From a virus (taxonomy: Duplodnaviria; Caudoviricetes): 64,000 nt of DNA. The notes beneath the pieces are model-generated. The model searched no databases. It had not been told where the DNA came from and saw only the letters and a program-made list of their open reading frames with translations. Shown here piece after piece: positions 3,911-53,467 of the stretch. The number at the start of each line of letters is the position of its first letter. Position 1 is the first letter of the stretch. The stretch lies in IMG/VR virus record IMGVR_UViG_3300032038_000011, positions 1 to 64,000 of that record. One strand, written 5' to 3'. The position numbers were made by a program, and so were the translations under genes.

Positions 3911-3984
3911 TGGAGCCGTATACTTGATTCGAACAAGCATTTATATATTACGAATATATTGTTCTACCATTGAACTAATACGGC
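3911..3984 (-). tRNA. tRNA-Thr(CGT)
   Basis: GCCGTAT...ATACGGC-T-CCA, loop TT-CGT-AA. Confidence 0.85.
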
Positions 3985-3988
3985 AATT

Positions 3989-4064
3989 TGGTAGACCGGG
4001 TGGGATTTGAACCCACACTTGCTAGCTCCTTAGGCTAGTGCCTCTGCCATTGGGCTACCGGTCC
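3989..4064 (-). tRNA. tRNA-Leu(AAG), short variable arm
   Basis: GGACCGG...CCGGTCT-A-CCA, loop CT-AAG-GA, Leu-type D arm. Confidence 0.85.
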
Positions 4065-4230: not shown

Positions 4231-4392
4231 AGTGCGGAGTAGTCTATTATGGTATCAAGCCCCTCCGCCGAGCTACTCTTATCTCCCCGAGTCGGGCATA
4301 ATAGACTATTGCGAACTTGCGGTCTATTAGCGCGGCACCTTTAATTTCAGGTCTATAATCAGCCTTACGCCGCAGGTCTGTATCTGCGGAAA
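4231..4392 (-). ncRNA. Unassigned structured spacer RNA between tRNA-Arg and tRNA-Tyr
   Basis: 11-bp stem AGTCTATTATG/CATAATAGACT plus CCGCAG/CTGCGG hairpin, GC-rich. Confidence 0.35.
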
Positions 4393-4468: not shown

Positions 4469-4581
4469 ACGCGTCCTACCATCTTTATTTATCGTGTGGA
4501 AAGGTAGGATATTGACACGGGAAAGGAGTGCGGTCATGACTCCGCTTAATGTTGCTCCCCAGTCATCCTCTCAACATATTT

Positions 4582-4610
4582 ATTATAATATAATTTTAGA
4601 GAAAAGTCAA
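4582..4610 (-). promoter_or_regulatory. sigma-A type promoter for the tRNA block
   Basis: TTGACT-N17-TATAAT. Confidence 0.85.
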
Positions 4611-6301
4611 GTATTTTTCTTTACATAATTCCCACTTAGCCAACCAATTTTATCCATAATATAAATAGCATACCAACCATTTGAAGAAATAATTGGTTTA
4701 TTATTTTTATTAACTACTACATTAAGAGCTGTATTTTGGGGCAAATTAGTAATCTTTTCATAAGAAGTTCCATCACCCATTCTAACATTTACAGAATATT
4801 TAGTAACATATTCGCTTTCAATTTTTACAGGTTCTGGCACGACAATTTCTTCTTGTGGCTTTTCTTCTTCAGCAGTTAAATCAGAAAGAGCATTCATTAG
4901 AGCTTTATGAGTCTGTTCGCTATAAATACCATCCACTTCTAGATTGTATTCATTTTGGAAAGTTTTTACAGCAAGTTCTGTTTTTTTACCAAAAATACCA
5001 TCAACTTCTAAGTTAAGATTTAATAAAAGATTTAAATTTTTTTGAAGCTCTTTAACGGCATTTCCTTTAGAACCATTCTTTAAAGAAGTTTCACCAAGTA
5101 TTTCTGTCGCGGGAGCAGCTTGATTTTCTTGATAAATAATGCTTGGAATTTTAAACCAATGAAGCCATTTTCTATCTTTTATTTTAGTTTTAACACAACC
5201 ATACTTAAAGCCACGCTCTTCAACTGCTTCGCCATTTCCAATATAAACTCCAACGTGACCGTCCATATGGAGACCTAATCCTGGAATCTCAGGCAAAGTA
5301 TCAATATTACCCCAATCTAAACCTTGAGATTTCGCGTAAGAAAACATACCATTGGCAGATTTGTCTGGCATATTATTACTTTTATATTTATTTGTGAATA
5401 ATGGGTTTTCTTTTCCAATTGATTCTATAACGTCTTCGCCAGCATTAGTCCATGCGTAACCTTTCATAAGGCCAACGCAATCAGCACAAATTTTGTGTGC
5501 GGCAATATCTGCTTTATAACGAGACATCCTATCAGAAGTATAATGCTCTGGATAGCTTTTGGTCTTAGATTTTAATTTAGATTCTGTACAAGGATATATA
5601 CAAGTTGCATACCAATAGGGCATACCAACGAATTTCTTACAAAATTCTACAAAGTGCATATTACTAAATTTATCATACATAGGTTTTTCCTCCTCGTCTG
5701 GCTCCCAGCCTTCTAAAAACCATTCCAAAGGCTTATCACCATTTATAAGGTTTAAATCTACATCTTCGTTAAGTCCAGCTAGCGTGCCATTACTGGTATA
5801 TTGCCATAAATCATTATAATGCTTTGGTTTAGAAGAATCTGAAGGTATATTACCATCATCTTTACCCCAATGTGGTATCCACATTATATCGCACATTTCA
5901 ATAGCTTTCCCGGCATATTTATATTTTCTGTTGATATACATACCAATTTTTTGACAGCCTAATTTGCGTAATTCTTCTAAAAAGGCAACACAAACTGGTT
6001 CAGTATTAGTTGAATTAAATCTGTCTCCTTCGATATCAGCAATATAGAATAATGGTTTCTTATATGCTTTATTAGCATGTTCTACAAAAAAACGCGCTTG
6101 TTCGCGCGAATCTTTTGCTGTAGTAGCAGTTACATAGTGATATACACCATAAGGAACTTTACTATCTTTTGCATATTTAATATAACGTTTATCTTCTTTT
6201 AGTCCAACAGTTGCGCGAAAAATTACTAAATCAAGTTCAGTACGTGCTAAATCCCAATTAATAGGATAATCTCCTTCAAAAATATCAGCTATTTTACCCA
6301 T
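4607..6301 (-). CDS. Modular lysin: GH25 muramidase + NlpC/P60-like + PG-binding + SH3b
   Basis: ADIEG and LWQYTS...VDLN (GH25); DCVGL...GHVGVYIGNG (NlpC/P60); VDGIFGKKT (PG-binding); VNVRMG...GWLSG (SH3). Confidence 0.85.
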   Translation of the reverse strand: MGKIADIFEGDYPINWDLARTELDLVIFRATVGLKEDKRYIKYAKDSKVPYGVYHYVTATTAKDSREQARFFVEHANKAYKKPLFYIADIEGDRFNSTNTEPVCVAFLEELRKLGCQKIGMYINRKYKYAGKAIEMCDIMWIPHWGKDDGNIPSDSSKPKHYNDLWQYTSNGTLAGLNEDVDLNLINGDKPLEWFLEGWEPDEEEKPMYDKFSNMHFVEFCKKFVGMPYWYATCIYPCTESKLKSKTKSYPEHYTSDRMSRYKADIAAHKICADCVGLMKGYAWTNAGEDVIESIGKENPLFTNKYKSNNMPDKSANGMFSYAKSQGLDWGNIDTLPEIPGLGLHMDGHVGVYIGNGEAVEERGFKYGCVKTKIKDRKWLHWFKIPSIIYQENQAAPATEILGETSLKNGSKGNAVKELQKNLNLLLNLNLEVDGIFGKKTELAVKTFQNEYNLEVDGIYSEQTHKALMNALSDLTAEEEKPQEEIVVPEPVKIESEYVTKYSVNVRMGDGTSYEKITNLPQNTALNVVVNKNNKPIISSNGWYAIYIMDKIGWLSGNYVKKNT

Positions 6302-6326
6302 AATCTCACCTTCTTTTTTGAGGTAT

Positions 6327-6357
6327 AAAAAAAGAGTTTGATTAAAATCAAACTCTT
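6327..6357 (-). terminator. Rho-independent terminator ending the tRNA transcript
   Basis: AAGAGTTTGATT/AATCAAACTCTT hairpin followed by a T run on the minus strand. Confidence 0.7.
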
Positions 6358-6367
6358 ATAAAATATA

Positions 6368-6498
6368 ACAAGTCGCTTTAATAGAAGGATGTTTATTAGA
6401 CATCTGCCTAAACCATTTGGCTAACTACGCGATTTGGTGCGTGGTATGGGATTCGAACCCATATGTTCTATAAAGAACAATTGCTGTGAGCGACTTAT
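6368..6498 (-). ncRNA. Circularly permuted tRNA-like RNA (anticodon AAT) enclosed in an ACAGCAA stem element
   Basis: Order: variable arm, T arm, 3' acceptor + ACCA, AATC linker, 5' acceptor, D arm, anticodon arm; flanked by AAGTCGCT/AGCGACTT. Confidence 0.8.
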
Positions 6499-6501
6499 AA
6501 A

Positions 6502-6591
6502 TGGCGTAGGGTACAGGATTTGAACCTGTGTGCCGTATTTCAGACAACTCGCTTTCCAGGCGAGCACCATCAGCCTCTCGGTCAACCCTAC
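6502..6591 (-). tRNA. tRNA-Ser(GGA)
   Basis: Loop CT-GGA-AA, long variable arm, G73-CCA. Confidence 0.9.
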
Positions 6592-6595
6592 ATAT

Positions 6596-6686
6596 TGGCG
6601 CGGGCTAAGGGATTCGAACCCTTGCGACTTTTACATCCTATCTGATTTCGAATCAGACCTCTTAACCCAGACTTGAGTAAACCCGC
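6596..6686 (-). tRNA. tRNA-Ser(CGA)
   Basis: Loop TT-CGA-AA, long variable arm, G73-CCA. Confidence 0.9.
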
Positions 6687-6691
6687 ATAAG

Positions 6692-6764
6692 CACCGGCAT
6701 TGAGGGTCGAACTCAAATTACGAATTTAGAAGACTCGTGCTCTATCCTGTTAAGCTATACCGGC
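6692..6764 (-). tRNA. tRNA-Arg(TCT)
   Basis: GCCGGTA...TGCCGGT-G, loop CT-TCT-AA. Confidence 0.9.
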
Positions 6765-6776
6765 ATAAGTTAATAC

Positions 6777-6886
6777 AAGACAGTTTTTTTCGATTATGTC
6801 AGAGTCGAACTGACGTTTTTTAAATTGGAAGTTTAATGTATTATCCACTATACTAATAATCAAATTAAATTTGCTGTAACTGTCTT
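6777..6886 (-). ncRNA. ACAGCAA stem element enclosing a degenerate AT-rich tRNA-Gly(TCC) (6790..6862)
   Basis: AAGACAGTT/AACTGTCTT stem, TACAGCAA, cloverleaf TGATTAT...ATAATCG-A with loop CT-TCC-AA, no CCA. Confidence 0.75.
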
Positions 6887-6891
6887 AAAAG

Positions 6892-6965
6892 TGGGCCATC
6901 AGAGATTCGAACTCTGAACTCCTAGTTTAAGAGACTAGTACTCTGACCAATTGAGTTAATGGCCC
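6892..6965 (-). tRNA. tRNA-Lys(CTT)
   Basis: GGGCCAT...ATGGCCC-A, loop CT-CTT-AA. Confidence 0.9.
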
Positions 6966-7038
6966 ATGGTTAGCTGATTTTCGGTCATATCAGCCACAGT
7001 AATATTTATTTATAGTCGCTACTCAATATATTTTATGA

Positions 7039-7076
7039 CCTACGACATCCAGTTTTAAATTGCCGCGAATCATAGG
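7039..7076 (-). ncRNA. Empty variant of the stem element (CGCGGCAA)
   Basis: CCTATGAT/GTCGTAGG stem with GCGGCAA + AT-rich loop. Confidence 0.45.
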
Positions 7077-7092
7077 AAAACTATTAACCTTA

Positions 7093-7172
7093 TGGTGGCC
7101 AAGGTTGGAGTCGAACCAACATAACGGGTTTTTCTGACCTTAATAAAAAATAATATTTGCAGTAAAGGTCTA
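7093..7172 (-). pseudogene. Stem element (TACTGCAA) fused to a tRNA 3' half (Phe-like)
   Basis: GACCTT/AAGGTC stem, then GAAAA-ACCCG, T arm GTTGG-TTCGACT-CCAAC, CTTGGCC-A-CCA; no 5' half. Confidence 0.65.
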
Positions 7173-7248
7173 TGGAGCCACCACTGGGACTTGAACCCAG
7201 CCTCTCACGCTTACCAAGCGTGCGCTTTACCAACTAAGCTATGGCGGC
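7173..7248 (-). tRNA. tRNA-Thr(GGT)
   Basis: GCCGCCA...TGGTGGC-T-CCA, loop TT-GGT-AA. Confidence 0.9.
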
Positions 7249-7283
7249 ACATAAGGTGAGGTATCCCTCAACCTTACATAAAT

Positions 7284-7312
7284 ATTATACCAGAATTTTT
7301 ACTTAAAGTCAA
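7284..7312 (-). promoter_or_regulatory. sigma-A type promoter for tRNA block 6327-7250
   Basis: TTGACT-N17-TATAAT with extended TG. Confidence 0.85.
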
Positions 7313-7653
7313 AGAAATAAGGGGTTGAAAATATCAAATAGAGTAGGGATAATACCCTTTGCATCTTCACCAGTTAGAGTTTGATGAAAAGTTCCATAAT
7401 CTTTACAGAAAGCTTCAAGTACTTCACTATACTTATGTTGCGCTGTTACCATAGCTTTTCGAGCATCTTCTACTTCCTGCGCGCGAGTCTTACGTTCAGC
7501 AGCAAGAGCTTCTTGCTTTTCTTTGCGCTCACGTTCGGCCTTTTCACGTAAAATCTTTTGACGATTCTGCTCTTCCTTCACCTTAAATTCGGCTTCTAGA
7601 CAAGCCTTTTCCGTGTCATAAAACTGCTTTGTTACATCACTATAAAACTTCAT
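7309..7653 (-). CDS. Hypothetical coiled-coil protein
   Basis: ORF with GGAG RBS and its own promoter at 7729..7757. Confidence 0.7.
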   Translation of the reverse strand: MKFYSDVTKQFYDTEKACLEAEFKVKEEQNRQKILREKAERERKEKQEALAAERKTRAQEVEDARKAMVTAQHKYSEVLEAFCKDYGTFHQTLTGEDAKGIIPTLFDIFNPLFL

Positions 7654-49790: not shown

Positions 49791-52320
49791 TTAATTGTTC
49801 ACTGATACTTCGCATTTACTTTTTTCCTTTGAAATAAATATAAAATCTTCTGGTTTGGCTTTTGACAAATCCATTTCAATAATTATATTTTCTGGTTTTT
49901 TTGAGCCTAAAATTGTTTTTTCAAAATCTTCTCTATTAGAATTATTTTCATATGAAAATGTATAATTACAATTTAAACAATCGCAATATACTGTTTCAGA
50001 ATTCTTATCAGGATTTATATTTATCCCATCTTTATATATTGGAGGATAATATACCGCAGTAACAGTTGAATATTTTACTTGATAATAACTTTTGCCGCAA
50101 TTTGGACACTTAATCATACGAGCCTCCCAGTCCTGCCATAGACATATGCCAAGCACTTTCTTCATCATCTACATTTTCATAAACTTCTTGCCAAGGACAC
50201 CATTTTGGTTTAAGCCAATTAGCCCAAATATCAGGAACTGATTCAGAAGTATTCCATTCAATAACAACCATTTCCTGTTTTGCGGCCGCGCAATATCGAA
50301 TTAGATATTGAACTCCTTGTACATTTTCTTTGTCTATAGCGTAAGTTTGCATACAAGGACATTCTATACATTTTTGCGGCATTCTTCTATTTAAAGCAAT
50401 CATTAATCATCAATCCTCATATAAGTTTCTTCAAAAATATCTTCTCTACAAGGATAATATTCACCCTTTGGTCCACGAATAATCCAACTACCAGGAATAG
50501 CTTTCATTTCTCCTTCTAAAGTATGAATAAAAAGATTATTTGAACCGTCAATAACTGGATGATTATCTCCCATAAAATTAGCGATTTGATCAAAATTATG
50601 TCCGGTCCACTGAAAAGCATCAATTGGAATAGGCTTCTTTACAAACTTCATATTAGTCCTCCTTAATTTCTTTAGTAATATAAACGGGTGTACTTTTTTC
50701 TTCTTCTAAAGGAGTATTTTGCCATAAATAAACTCCCATATTTATGATAATACTAATATTTAGAACAATAATGAAAAGAATAAAAATTTCCATAATACCT
50801 CTTAATGATAGTTTTTACCATAAATACCAATTTCACCATTGGAAAGATAATACGGTGAGACGCCAAAAGCATAGCTACCTTCCGAGCCAATTATATAATA
50901 CATAACCTTTGTGTCTGGGTCATAACCGAGTCTAACAGAATATTCGCCTATAGCGCGCGAATAAAGCGTTTTAATTACATAAAAATTAGCAATAGTTTCA
51001 ACCGTTTGTCCGTTATCAAGAGCAATTCGCTTTGAGCAACCTGTTAGTGCGAGAAGTATACCTAAAATTAAAATAAAAATTAAAACTTTCTTCATATTAT
51101 CTCCTTAAAACTTATCTGCCATCCAAATACCAAGTTTCGCGCCTAAAAACGCCCCAATAATATAACCAATAAGCCAGTAGAAAAATCTCATTTAAAACAT
51201 CTCCGTCATAAGTATATCAAGATAATCGGATTCTAATCCAAGATAAGAAGCAAGAATATCTTCTGCTTCTTGCCAATATCCTTGTGCAACTGCTTCTTCC
51301 ATTTCTTCCATACATTCACTAACGAGATTGGTTGCTTCTAAAACAGAAATATTATCTCTATGCATAATTAAGTTAATAACATCATTCACTGAATTCATTT
51401 ACATACTCCCATTCATTACATTCTTCTCGTATTTTATCATCTGGTTTAGTATCCCACCAACGATAACGTTTATCGCGCCATTTTTCCGCAAATAACTCGT
51501 CAATAGCTTCTCTTACTTCATTTTCCCAATTATTACAAAAATAATGATTCCCATTTATCATTATAGGCTGTTGAGTAAAGCCAATGTCAAACATATAAGG
51601 CTGAAGAGAGGTATGACCATCAAAATAACATTCAAGCCATACTACCTCTCCAATTTCACCTATAGAACAAATGTCAGAAGTTGTAAGAAGTTTACTCATA
51701 ACGTGGCTCCAGTCCAAGTGCGGTGGCAATTTCAGCAGGAATAGGTTGGTCGGCCTTTTCATTTAAACGATCTTCAAGTCTAGCTCCTGCACTATATTCA
51801 TCAATGAAATAAACGCTCTTTGGTGTAGTTAAACCCATTTTCTTTAAGTATTCGCGCCAAGTAGGATATTTAGGCTCGGGGTGCTCTGCAGCCCAAGTAT
51901 TAACTACTTCTTCAATCTTTCCCCAATCGGTTGCTTCATCCATCGCCCAAATAGCGTCGCAATTGTGAATAGGGCAAATATGACAACAATCTTCTTGATA
52001 ATGTTCGTCATAATACTTACACATGCGTTGCCAATCGCGCATGATTTGAGCGAAATTTGTCATTCCCATGTATATTTGTCTCCCTTATATTCTTCAATTT
52101 CCATAACAGGTGTTTCAATCATGTGCGCGCCGCAGTGATGACAAAATTTTTCAGCAGAAGGAAAAGCAGAACTGCCATTAAAAGCCATAGTTTTACAATT
52201 GCTACAATGGAAAATTCCTCCGTGCCAAGAGCCATCCGCATCAGTGTATAAATCATAAATCCAATGAGCTGTAATTTCCATAATAATCTCCTTATTCATC
52301 TTCATTAATTCCAATTTCAT
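49791..52320 (-). CDS. Run of small hypothetical ORFs (49791, 50110, 50403, 50802 lipoprotein-like, 51192, 51382, 51692, 52060)
   Basis: ORF track; several CxxC motifs; LTGC lipobox in 50802..51095. Confidence 0.55.
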
Positions 52321-53467
52321 TTTTACTTACAAGAGTTTGGAGATGCGCGGAAAGACTCTTCGCGCGCATCTCTTTATAAAATTCGTTCGCATTCTGCACC
52401 TTATTATCAAGCCGCGCGAAAAGAAAAGACTTTAGTGGCCCGATATAAGTACAAGCATAACGAGCAAAATCTGCACGAGTAGCAGGAGAATGCGACATTA
52501 TAGTAGAGAAAGCTAAGTCAGCAATATCAATTAAATGTTGCAACTGATGAATAACTTCATCAACAAAAGAACGAAATTCCGGATAATAGGCAATAAAATC
52601 ATCAAGAGAATCATTTTGCCACATTTCCACAACTCGTAGAACAGTTAAAGCTCCATTACCACGCAGCTTATGTAGCCGCAAGTATTCGTCGCCTTTAACC
52701 TTTATACGCAGAACAGAACCATTTTCTTTTTGATTATACGCAGTAACTACATAGCCTTCTTCATCTACGCCCATCTTATGCGCGGCTTCAATACATTCTG
52801 CAAGAGAAGTATAATGAAAATGGCGCGGACGCTTAACCCAAGAAGAATTCCAAAATAAGAAATCTTCGATTCCCATTCCAGTATCTTCTTCCATATTCAT
52901 CATCTTACGCATACCAAGAAAATAAATCGCAGCTTCATTGTAATGAATAACAATACGGTTCATCGGAGATACCATTTCAAACCAGTAGGTATACAAAGGA
53001 GATAGAGTAGAAAGAAATTCACCCCAAGAAACATGCTGCTGGATGATAGACTTAAAGATAGCACCAAAAGTAGTATCGCCGCATTCAGCCTTGAAAGCAT
53101 CAATAGTTCCATTAGTAGAAATATGCCATTCATTCCGGTCATACCATACTTTAATAATAGAACCATCAATCTTTTCCTGTACGTCTACGCCAAGAGTCCA
53201 ATCTATACGATTAGTAGAAGCATAAGATTCTCCATAGTTACCAAATTTATCCATTGCGCGGCAAATACAAAACCATTCACCCGCATCATTTTGACGAAAG
53301 ATAGACCCGCGCGCTTCAATAACTTCAGGTAGGTTAAAATCAGACTGAATCATATTATACTTTAAGATATAATAATCTCCATCCTGCTTGGTTTCAATAA
53401 AATACGGAGCAACAGCTAATTTAGCTTGCCAATCCGAATTTTCATTCATAAACTTAGTCAAATACAT
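52292..53467 (-). CDS. T4 Rnl1-like RNA ligase
   Basis: EARG.IF, KF.N, EKIDGS (motif I), FEM..P.NRIV, EGYVV, IKVK..Y. Confidence 0.85.
   Translation of the reverse strand: MYLTKFMNENSDWQAKLAVAPYFIETKQDGDYYILKYNMIQSDFNLPEVIEARGSIFRQNDAGEWFCICRAMDKFGNYGESYASTNRIDWTLGVDVQEKIDGSIIKVWYDRNEWHISTNGTIDAFKAECGDTTFGAIFKSIIQQHVSWGEFLSTLSPLYTYWFEMVSPMNRIVIHYNEAAIYFLGMRKMMNMEEDTGMGIEDFLFWNSSWVKRPRHFHYTSLAECIEAAHKMGVDEEGYVVTAYNQKENGSVLRIKVKGDEYLRLHKLRGNGALTVLRVVEMWQNDSLDDFIAYYPEFRSFVDEVIHQLQHLIDIADLAFSTIMSHSPATRADFARYACTYIGPLKSFLFARLDNKVQNANEFYKEMRAKSLSAHLQTLVSKNEIGINEDE

What the first reader, a model, noticed from the sequence alone, without database searches (positions are those of the whole stretch)
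6368..7172. Family of four stem-(A/G)CNGCAA carrier elements with interchangeable tRNA cargo
Seen: four hairpins with different stem sequences, each followed on the 5' strand by the same motif and an A/U linker. CACAGCAA (6368-6498) carries the permuted tRNA, TACAGCAA (6777-6886) a whole tRNA-Gly, CGCGGCAA (7039-7076) is empty, and TACTGCAA (7136-7170) has an empty loop followed by a tRNA 3' half. Different stems with retained pairing amount to covariation within one genome. Inference: a protein-binding or processing handle, analogous to the Ro60-binding stem of Y RNAs, that presents tRNA-shaped modules, for example as decoys for anticodon nucleases or substrates for the phage repair enzymes. 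No partner protein is identifiable in the window.
Basis: partly seen in the sequence, partly recalled or inferred. Interest (0 to 1): 0.8.

Follow-up and report, generated by a model that had tools for sequence, protein, structure and literature searches.

The report
Phage tRNA-mimic RNAs with ACAGCAA handle
Two intact small RNA genes and one decayed one in this rumen phage's tRNA operon share a "handle" (a closing stem plus ACAGCAA) that clamps tRNA look-alikes; in related phages the handle goes with a gene for a Ro60-shaped RNA-binding protein, which suggests an undescribed relative of Ro/Y-RNA particles.

Summary
The window (the start of a 137-kb, 33% GC rumen phage contig) has two intact "closing stem + ACAGCAA" elements on the minus strand. 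E1 (6498-6368) holds a circularly permuted tRNA look-alike. E2 (6887-6776) holds a whole but non-canonical tRNA-Gly(UCC). "CGCGGCAA" is not a handle.

The family is real. Relatives keep E1 and E2, and they carry further classes with other stems and other cargo. One 10-bp stem carries at least eight different cargoes in unrelated phages. The closing stem covaries.

Rfam has no family for it. YrlA does not match. The Dictyostelium Class I RNA model (consensus CCUUACAGCAA) gives the only hit, below threshold.

The candidate partner is a DUF2828+vWA protein whose predicted fold matches Ro60. It lies in the same tRNA island in relatives. All 10 tested contigs with a stemmed handle encode it, and 0 of 9 controls do. 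It is absent from this 80%-complete contig, which probably ends about 2.6 kb short of it.

Binding is untested. The scan had already noted this handle and its pairing with DUF2828 in many other phage genomes; I tested that pairing again here. Most likely this is a Y-RNA-like particle of a new variant.

The parts
6368..6498 (-). E1, class (a) handle RNA. Parts in order: closing stem 6498-6489 with 6377-6368; C plus ACAGCAA 6488-6481; small hairpin 6478-6465; T arm 6462-6446; acceptor hairpin ACCACGC-ACCA-AAUC-GCGUAGU 6445-6424; D arm 6421-6406; anticodon-like arm 6404-6388 (loop CUAAUAA).
   Evidence: Fold at z = -5.7. ARAGORN calls tRNA(aat) after rotation. Conserved at 87% in 5 relatives, with compensatory changes in the acceptor and anticodon-like stems (A3).
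6776..6887 (-). E2, class (b) handle RNA. Parts: closing stem 6887-6878 with 6785-6776; ACAGCAA 6877-6871; 14-nt linker; tRNA-Gly(UCC) 6863-6789 with U1.G72, A73 and no CCA; A5 linker.
   Evidence: 94% identical in 4 relatives (A4). The same 10-bp stem plus motif holds other cargo in 8 unrelated phage contigs.
7037..7172 (-). Decayed class (c) handle RNA.
   Evidence: Alignment A1 with L008, L001, L003, L002, L013 and L014. Its fold is not better than shuffles, z = -1.5.
7284..7312 (-). Sigma-70-type promoter of the tRNA/handle-RNA operon (TTGACT, 17 nt, TATAAT), followed by a leader hairpin and tRNA-Thr(GGU) at 7248-7173.
   Evidence: Read from the sequence. Conserved in L003, L008 and L009.
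6327..6357 (-). Intrinsic terminator (11-bp stem plus a U run) directly after E1.
   Evidence: Read from the sequence. Conserved in L001 and L003.

Best explanation
E1 and E2 are genes for small stable RNAs of an uncatalogued phage family. The element at 7172-7037 is a decayed third copy.

Each RNA has a constant handle. Its 5' and 3' ends pair in a 7-11-bp stem that starts (U)AAG or UAG and ends CUUG or CUAG. An invariant G-C pair sits 7 nt before a single-stranded (U)ACAGCAA on the 5' strand.

The handle encloses a variable cargo. In this window the cargo is a tRNA look-alike with a sealed acceptor end (E1) and a tethered, non-canonical tRNA-Gly(UCC) (E2).

Inferred steps:
- The RNAs are cut out of the tRNA operon transcript by the RNase P and 3'-end cuts made at the neighbouring tRNAs, then trimmed back to the stem.
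- The handle docks a Ro60-shaped DUF2828+vWA protein, as the stem of a Y RNA docks Ro60.
- The tRNA-shaped cargo presents a tRNA surface to a tRNA-binding enzyme or nuclease, acting as a tether, gate or decoy.

Shown: the RNA family, its covariation, modular cargo, the Ro60-like predicted fold of the protein, and co-occurrence of the two.

Not shown: RNA ends, binding, and any function of the cargo.
For: Family and structure:
- E1 and E2 have 10-bp closing stems; no other ACAGCAA in the 137-kb contig has one.
- Both are conserved in relatives.
- In 360 kb of related and DUF2828 loci, the sense strand has 70 ACAGCAA sites, 38 of them with a stem of 7 bp or more. The antisense strand has 18 and 3. 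In shuffles 21% of sites get such a stem.
- On 13 short-cargo members, 86% of closing-stem cells pair, against 31-42% when the partner is slid. Six of 10 pairs change on both sides, and 0 of 500 shuffles reach the observed values.

Modular cargo:
- The cargo types seen are permuted tRNA-like, whole tRNA, non-tRNA, and tRNA without an acceptor stem.

Architecture:
- The layout equals YrlA: 5' motif, T arm, loop-closed acceptor, D arm, 3' strand (PMC4201824).

Partner protein:
- A 542-aa DUF2828+DUF7788/vWA protein lies in the same tRNA island of G001, G002 and G003.
- Its AlphaFold model has pLDDT 78.5 and pTM 0.78.
- The 13 best PDB matches are all Ro60, Rsr or phage phiLo Ro60, with E from 2.5e-9 to 1e-6 over about 530-590 columns.
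- Handles lie 135-475 nt upstream of the gene in distant homologues L051, L052 and L041.
- All 10 tested contigs with a stemmed copy of the E2 handle encode DUF2828. None of 9 contigs with a stemless 17-mer do.

This contig:
- Its left end is 88.8% identical to L027, where DUF2828 follows 2.7 kb further on.

Expression:
- Contigs from rumen RNA libraries of four studies cover E1 and E2. This is weak evidence.
Against: - No binding or end-mapping data exist.
- This contig has no DUF2828 or TROVE gene.
- The motif ACAGCAA differs from the known Ro60 contact motifs GNCGAA(N)G and GGUCCGA (PMC4201824) and CGAA (PMC12135203).
- Handles and DUF2828 both sit in tRNA islands of large phages, so co-location and co-occurrence may partly reflect shared genome type. 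The nine negative controls were mostly small, incomplete contigs.
- The RNA-library contigs cannot show strand, ends or exclusion of DNA.
Confidence: 0.55

Rival explanations
1. The handle is a processing and stability module with no dedicated protein. The closing stem blocks exonucleases and fixes the ends after RNase P and RNase Z cut the neighbouring tRNAs. ACAGCAA would be a site for a host RNase or chaperone. The cargo RNAs would act on their own.
For: Handles start 1-4 nt after an upstream tRNA 3' end and stop just before the next tRNA or the terminator. This contig has no DUF2828 gene.
Against: Seven invariant single-stranded bases plus a fixed G-C pair persist across phages whose DUF2828 proteins are only 35-50% identical. 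That fits a sequence-specific partner. Host nuclease sites are usually degenerate. Handle presence tracks the DUF2828 gene.
Confidence: 0.2
2. These are permuted or split tRNA genes, or intron-like elements. The handle would be cut and the ends joined, for example by the phage Rnl1 ligase. The acceptor loop would then be opened by RNase P and given CCA, producing working tRNAs.
For: E1 contains every tRNA part, and in the window and L010 it has ACCA in the acceptor loop. M. smegmatis YrlA is cut by RNase P and receives CCA (PMC4201824). The phage encodes Rnl1 at 52292-53467. The UCC anticodon of E2 is conserved.
Against: The E1 anticodon changes between AAU and AAC among close relatives, and class (c) changes between GUA and UAA. 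CCA is replaced by an ACA triloop in 4 of 6 E1 orthologues. Many handles hold non-tRNA cargo. E2 is not permuted and would not need a handle. Its acceptor (U1.G72 or A1/G72, A73) lacks the bacterial Gly identity set G1-C72, C2-G71, G3-C70, U73; that set is established knowledge, not tested here.
Confidence: 0.1
3. The shared motif is an accident of decaying tRNA genes and spacers.
For: The degenerate motif was defined after the fact.
Against: E1 and E2 are conserved. The handles are strand-specific, covarying and recurrent in unrelated phages.
Confidence: 0.03

Closest known systems
YrlA-type Y RNAs bound by Ro60/Rsr in bacteria and mycobacteriophages (Rfam RF02553; Chen et al. 2014, PMC4201824), and Yrl1/Yrl2 of Thermus phage phiLo (PMC12135203)
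   Same: The ends pair in a stem, and a short conserved motif sits on the 5' strand. The parts then run T arm, loop-closed acceptor stem, D arm. [quoted passage not shown] A ring-plus-vWA, Ro60-like protein is encoded nearby in relatives, with RNA ligase genes in the neighbourhood.
   Different: The motif is (U)ACAGCAA, not GNCGAA(N)G or CGAA. The RF02553 model does not hit the elements; its best own-genome hit, at 24 bits, is a tRNA dimer. The protein is DUF2828/DUF7788, not Pfam TROVE. E1 keeps a full anticodon-like arm and joins the handle through the variable region. The cargo can also be a whole tRNA or a non-tRNA sequence. The genes are scattered inside tRNA arrays.
Class I RNAs of dictyostelid social amoebae (Rfam RF01414; Kjellin et al. 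2021, PMC7919456)
   Same: A short stem joins the 5' and 3' ends. The RNA starts AAG, with a fully conserved G that pairs with the C of the 3' end CUGU; the phage handles have AAG...CUUG(U). A conserved single-stranded motif adjoins the 5' stem strand, and the Rfam consensus reads CCUUACAGCAA. The rest of the RNA is variable. RF01414 is the only Rfam family to hit a phage handle RNA (L036 93-139, 22.5 bits, E 0.12).
   Different: The hit is below the gathering score of 41.5. Class I RNAs are 42-65 nt, have no tRNA-like cargo, are eukaryotic and were reported as unique to Dictyostelia. Their known binder is the RRM protein Rnp1A/CIBP. Neither common descent nor a shared partner is shown.
Circularly permuted tRNA genes of the red alga Cyanidioschyzon merolae, and two-piece tmRNA from permuted genes (from my own knowledge, not checked here)
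   Same: The 3' half (T arm, acceptor 3' strand, CCA) precedes the 5' half in the gene.
   Different: Those genes give working, chargeable molecules after processing. Here the anticodons drift, CCA is not conserved, and the flanking stem carries a conserved motif.

Membership tests
ACAGCAA-handle RNAs (uncatalogued phage family, as defined here) | Closing stem of 7 bp or more between the RNA's two ends, ending 0-3 nt before ACAGCAA on the 5' strand | tested here: met
   E1 and E2 each have 10 bp. The third element has ACUGCAA and only 5 bp left, so it does not meet the feature and is decayed. CGCGGCAA does not meet it.
ACAGCAA-handle RNAs (uncatalogued phage family, as defined here) | Conserved G-C pair 7 nt before ACAGCAA, with (U)AAG or UAG at the start and CUUG or CUAG at the end | tested here: met
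   E1 reads UAAGUCGCUC|ACAGCAA ... AGCGACUUG. E2 reads UAAGACAGUU|ACAGCAA ... AACUGUCUUG. The G-C pair is kept in 11 of 11 aligned members.
ACAGCAA-handle RNAs (uncatalogued phage family, as defined here) | Genome also encodes a DUF2828+vWA (Ro60-like) protein | tested here: inconclusive
   The gene is absent from the 137-kb contig, which is 80% complete. It is present in relatives G001-G003 and in all 10 tested contigs with a stemmed E2-type handle. The best-matching relative for the contig's end has the gene 2.7 kb beyond it.
YrlA / Y RNA (RF02553) | Match to the Rfam covariance model at the gathering score (69 bits) | tested here: not met
   There is no hit on E1, E2 or the third element. 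The best own-genome hit, 24.4 bits at 3931-4044, is a Leu-Thr tRNA dimer.
YrlA / Y RNA (RF02553) | GNCGAA(N)G motif near the 5' end (the Ro60 contact) | tested here: not met
   The sequence shows (C/U)ACAGCAA instead. The motif definition comes from PMC4201824.
YrlA / Y RNA (RF02553) | tRNA-like domain ordered T arm, closed acceptor-like stem, D arm, between paired ends | tested here: met
   This holds for E1 and for class (c) in relatives.
YrlA / Y RNA (RF02553) | Encoded near, and bound by, a Ro60/TROVE protein | tested here: inconclusive
   No Pfam TROVE gene is found in this contig or in 5 relatives. Relatives do have a Ro60-fold DUF2828 protein in the same island. Binding cannot be tested with these tools.
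Dictyostelium Class I RNA (RF01414) | Match to the Rfam model at the gathering score (41.5 bits) | tested here: not met
   There is no hit in window 6300-7320. A relative's 47-nt handle RNA scores 22.5 bits.
Dictyostelium Class I RNA (RF01414) | Short terminal stem, AAG start, C...G closing pair, and an 11-nt motif ending ACAGCAA next to the 5' stem strand | tested here: met
   Compared the sequence of E1 and E2 with the Rfam consensus and the description in PMC7919456.
Dictyostelium Class I RNA (RF01414) | Length 42-65 nt, dictyostelid genome, DUSE promoter | tested here: not met
   E1 is 131 nt and E2 is 112 nt. Both lie in a phage genome behind a sigma-70-type promoter.
Functional (decoding) tRNA | Conserved anticodon and a free acceptor end with CCA or a site for its addition | tested here: not met
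   The E1 anticodon is AAU or AAC among orthologues, and the acceptor is sealed by a loop (ACA in 4 of 6). E2 keeps UCC but has U1.G72 or an A/G mismatch, A73 and no CCA.

The most novel reading that the evidence does not exclude
Large phages, and by earlier scan notes also giant viruses and some Bacillota, may carry an undescribed ribonucleoprotein system. A Ro60-shaped DUF2828+vWA protein would dock on a universal 'stem + ACAGCAA' handle that can be grafted onto any cargo: permuted tRNA mimics, whole tRNAs or other RNAs. The 20-year-old orphan Class I RNAs of Dictyostelium, reported as unique to social amoebae, would then be the eukaryotic branch of the same RNA family. That would give them a testable partner and origin.
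Probability: 0.3. Interest if true: 0.9.

Novelty: new variant of a known kind. Interest (0 to 1): 0.72.

Why it matters
Ro60/Y-RNA particles are known from animals, about 5% of bacteria and a few phages, and the job of the tRNA-like part of bacterial Y RNAs is still unknown.

A second, sequence-distinct branch of handle and protein would show three things:
- tRNA-mimic ribonucleoproteins are a common tool of large phages;
- there is a natural series of handles with swapped cargo that can be used to dissect what the cargo does;
- the handle is a compact, portable RNA tag of about 25 nt.

The resemblance to Dictyostelium Class I RNAs would also make their unexplained function directly testable.

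For genome annotation, such elements are currently read as odd tRNAs, tRNA fragments or nothing at all.

Tried and rejected
- Rfam at gathering and at E <= 10 on the window, and at E <= 1 on seven DUF2828 loci, gave only tRNAs, plus OLE and a weak hatchet hit elsewhere.
- YrlA RF02553 on the own genome and three relatives gave only sub-threshold tRNA dimers.
- blastn and megablast against 50,697 cultured-phage records matched only tRNA bodies and found no close relative.
- Pfam TROVE was absent in this contig and five relatives. RtcB was absent.
- A phmmer search of DUF2828 against PDB sequences found nothing useful. Only the fold comparison found Ro60.
- A full-text search for the bare motif ACAGCAA returned primer noise. 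A search for 'DUF2828' gave five unrelated plant or tardigrade papers.
- My first stem scanner (6 bp or more within 300 nt) was too permissive: about two thirds of control ACAGCAA sites passed. I raised the limit to 7 bp or more and added shuffle and antisense controls.
- The RNA-library runs were held only as contigs, so RNA ends, strand and abundance could not be read. Contig stops near 6886-6889 are not evidence of an RNA end.
- I considered and dropped K-turn, GNRA-loop, hammerhead, HDV-like and twister-like readings of ACAGCAA. Their defining core sequences are absent, and the proposed local ACA/UGU pairing around GCAA is not conserved in L009 and L010.
- The protein atlas showed DUF2828 clusters in Uroviricota, Nucleocytoviricota and Bacillota, but could not tell whether dictyostelids have the family.
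Full report
WHERE THE WINDOW LIES

The window is the first 64 kb of a single 136,935-bp viral contig with 33% G+C, estimated to be 80% complete. It encodes a GH25/PG-binding/SH3 endolysin. Its closest relatives are IMG/VR contigs. Sheep and bovine gut sequencing runs hold parts of the region. No cultured phage is close.

All tRNA genes lie on the minus strand. The finding sits in one operon that starts at a sigma-70-type promoter (TTGACT 7312-7307, TATAAT 7289-7284). Its order is:
- leader hairpin;
- tRNA-Thr(GGU), 7248-7173;
- a 207-nt gap;
- tRNA-Lys, tRNA-Gly(UCC), tRNA-Arg, tRNA-Ser, tRNA-Ser;
- a 131-nt element;
- an intrinsic terminator, 6357-6327;
- then the endolysin gene.

CHECKING THE OBSERVATION

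E1 (6498-6368) has a 10-bp closing stem followed by C and ACAGCAA. It then has a small hairpin, a T arm, an acceptor stem closed by ACCA-AAUC, a D arm and an anticodon-like arm. It folds far better than shuffled sequence (z = -5.7). After rotation, ARAGORN reads it as a complete tRNA(AAU).

E2 (6887-6776) has a 10-bp closing stem followed directly by ACAGCAA. This stem encloses tRNA-Gly(UCC) (62 bits to the Rfam tRNA model), held by a 14-nt linker and a 5-nt linker.

I aligned the 207-nt gap with the sequence after tRNA-Thr in six relatives (A1). There, UAGACCUGU-A-ACAGCAA opens a third handle class (c), which runs through a short hairpin, a T arm, a loop-closed acceptor and a D arm, and closes with GGGUCUA(G).

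The window's copy (7172-7037) is a decayed form of this class:
- ACAGCAA has become ACUGCAA, as in L008;
- the D arm is eroded;
- only AGGUC remains of the 3' closing strand.

The "CGCGGCAA carrier" lies in its eroded D-arm region and has no counterpart elsewhere. The window therefore holds two intact members and one decayed member.

Chance does not explain E1 and E2. Of the 32 ACAGCAA sites on both strands of the contig, only these two have a 10-bp closing stem. The post-hoc degenerate motif is about 14-fold enriched in the region.

IS IT A FAMILY?

Relatives carry larger tRNA arrays with the same elements. I found four classes:
- class (a), stem AGUCGCU, the E1 type, in L001, L003, L009, L010 and L014;
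- class (b), stem AAGACAGU, the E2 type, in L001, L002, L003 and L014;
- class (c), stem AGACCUGU;
- class (d), stem (U)AGGCAC with AA-ACAGCAA and a roughly 90-nt cargo that neither ARAGORN nor the Rfam tRNA model calls a tRNA, in L009, L010, L013 and L014.

G002 also has two 62-69-nt handle RNAs with short cargo behind their own promoter, at the head of another tRNA group.

I counted handles over 360 kb of related and DUF2828-bearing loci:

| Set | ACAGCAA sites | With closing stem of 7 bp or more |
|---|---|---|
| Sense strand | 70 distinct | 38 |
| Antisense strand | 18 | 3 |
| Shuffled downstream sequence | not applicable | 21% of sites |

An alignment of 13 short-cargo members (A5) keeps U-ACAGCAA invariant. 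On that alignment the 10-bp closing helix pairs in 86% of cells, against 31-42% when the partner is slid by 1-3 columns. Six of the 10 pairs change on both sides, one G-C pair is invariant, and no shuffle out of 500 reaches the observed values.

Within classes (a) and (c), the acceptor-like and anticodon-like stems show compensatory changes.

INTERCHANGEABLE CARGO

The exact 17-mer of the E2 handle occurs at 30 places in IMG/VR. Twelve of these have the matching 3' strand within 330 nt. Four are this lineage with tRNA-Gly(UCC). The other eight are other phages, with seven non-tRNA cargoes spanning roughly 20-180 nt and one permuted tRNA-like cargo of about 77 nt.

In L051 the handle takes the place of the acceptor stem of a tRNA body; the Rfam tRNA model matches positions 8-63 there.

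NOT WORKING tRNAs

The E1 anticodon is AAU in the window and L014 but AAC in four other orthologues. ACCA in the acceptor loop is replaced by an ACA triloop in four of six orthologues. The anticodon-like loop of class (c) changes from GUA to UAA.

E2 keeps UCC. However, it has U1.G72 (an A/G mismatch in relatives), A73 and no CCA. It therefore lacks the bacterial tRNA-Gly identity set; that set is established knowledge and was not tested here.

CANDIDATE PARTNER

Pfam TROVE is absent from this contig and from five relatives, one of them 100% complete.

DUF2828 (PF11443) is present in G001, G002 and G003 as a 542-aa protein that also carries DUF7788 and a weak vWA match. It lies inside the same tRNA island and on the same strand.

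I predicted its structure from a 17-sequence alignment (pLDDT 78.5, pTM 0.78). The 13 best PDB matches are all Ro60, Rsr or TROVE structures, including Thermus phage phiLo Ro60. Their E-values run from 2.5e-9 to 1e-6, and the alignments span about 530-590 columns. After these come only isolated vWA/MIDAS domains.

In more distant homologues (35-50% identity), handles lie 135-475 nt upstream of the gene (L051, L052, L041) or within the tRNA array 2-4 kb upstream (L036, L037, L047).

I also ran a genome-level test starting from the RNA. All 10 tested contigs that carry a stemmed E2-type handle encode DUF2828: G002, G003, G006-G010, G014, G015 and G021. None of 9 contigs where the 17-mer has no stem encodes it. 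The caveat is that the negative contigs are mostly small fragments.

This contig has no DUF2828 gene. However, its left end (positions 1400 down to 110) is 88.8% identical to L027 28-1333, and in L027 the gene follows 2.7 kb further on. The gene is therefore probably just beyond the contig's end. This is an inference.

An Rnl2-type ligase gene (PF09414) lies 1-1.7 kb downstream of DUF2828 in G001 and G002. This contig has an Rnl1-type ligase at 52292-53467. None of them has RtcB.

EXPRESSION

Contigs from four sheep or cattle gut RNA libraries, from four studies, cover E1 and E2 at 90-100% identity. These are assembled contigs from libraries that may contain DNA. They give only weak support for transcription and say nothing about RNA ends.

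COMPARISON WITH WHAT IS KNOWN

YrlA is described as having a GNCGAA(N)G motif near the 5' end, followed by a T arm, a closed acceptor-like stem, a D arm and a V region. M. smegmatis YrlA is cut by RNase P and receives CCA (PMC4201824). Phage phiLo Ro60 binds two Yrl RNAs that carry a CGAA motif (PMC12135203).

The layout here is the same. The differences are the motif, the protein family, the attachment point of the handle, and the range of cargo. The Rfam YrlA model does not match.

The only Rfam family that touches a handle RNA is the Dictyostelium Class I RNA model (RF01414), whose consensus reads CCUUACAGCAA. It scores 22.5 bits on L036 93-139, against a threshold of 41.5.

Class I RNAs are described as having a short stem that joins the ends, an AAG start, a CUGU end whose C pairs with the invariant G, and an 11-nt motif next to the 5' stem strand (PMC7919456). 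This is the same handle grammar as E1 and E2. Whether it reflects common descent is open.

I found no paper that links DUF2828 to RNA. Iyer et al. 2021 mention only ROT/TROVE proteins with a tRNA-like partner in some jumbo phages (PMC7824862).

EARLIER NOTES OF THIS SCAN

Other agents reported the same handle and its pairing with DUF2828 in many other phage and giant-virus genomes. I treated these notes as leads only. I then re-tested, on loci of this lineage and on independently fetched contigs, the Ro60-like fold, the co-occurrence and the Class I resemblance.

VERDICT

E1 and E2 are real members of a widespread, uncatalogued family of phage small RNAs, and there is a third, decayed copy. 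The most likely reading (about 0.55) is a Y-RNA-like particle in which the handle docks a Ro60-shaped DUF2828 protein and the tRNA-shaped cargo engages tRNA-binding factors.

The main rivals are a protein-independent processing and stability module (0.2) and true permuted tRNA genes (0.1).

Binding, RNA ends and the function of the cargo are all untested.

Noticed in passing
window 7251-7312 (minus strand): The promoter plus leader-hairpin module at the head of the tRNA operon appears in rumen RNA-library contigs with many different flanks, at summed depth up to 535. It looks like a reused promoter/leader cassette.
   Followed up: no
window 4469-4606 (minus strand); L002 1695-1803, L010 6705-6810, L013 3940-4045, L014 6140-6245: A conserved spacer of about 110 nt ('gaggaugacugggg...cuuucccg...') sits directly before a tRNA in this phage and in four relatives. 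It looks like another uncatalogued RNA of the tRNA island. Rfam gives no hit on the window copy.
   Followed up: no
window about 4296-4345 (minus strand), between tRNA-Arg(ACG) and tRNA-Tyr: UAUAGACCUG, then a hairpin UAAUAGAC-CGCAAGUUCGCAAUA-GUCUAUUA. This may be a further decayed handle with an ACCGCAA variant.
   Followed up: partly
L014 9454-9544; L049 4355-4357: Relatives show signs of amber recoding. L014 has a 91-nt tRNA with a CUA anticodon. The DUF2828 gene of L049 has an in-frame TAG where homologues mostly have W.
   Followed up: partly
L041 3238-3630: A match to OLE RNA (RF01071, 85 bits, above the gathering score) in a phage contig. It lies between tRNAs and a handle RNA, 370 nt upstream of DUF2828.
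   Followed up: no
G001 116782-117291, G002 85497-86009; window 52292-53467: A PF09414 RNA ligase gene lies 1-1.7 kb downstream of DUF2828 in two relatives. An Rnl1-type ligase (PF09511) is present in this contig and in all three relatives. None has RtcB.
   Followed up: partly
L001 4069-5038, L003 5473-5621, L009 7050-7226, L014 7502-8069: Small protein-coding inserts are wedged between tRNA genes of the arrays in relatives. The arrays are highly mosaic: Ile, Val, Gln, Gly(GCC) and Phe tRNAs are present in relatives but missing from the window's 207-nt gap.
   Followed up: no
L051 3856-3955: A handle RNA whose closing stem takes the place of the acceptor stem of a tRNA body (Rfam tRNA model positions 8-63, 43.6 bits). 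It lies 135 nt upstream of a DUF2828 gene.
   Followed up: partly
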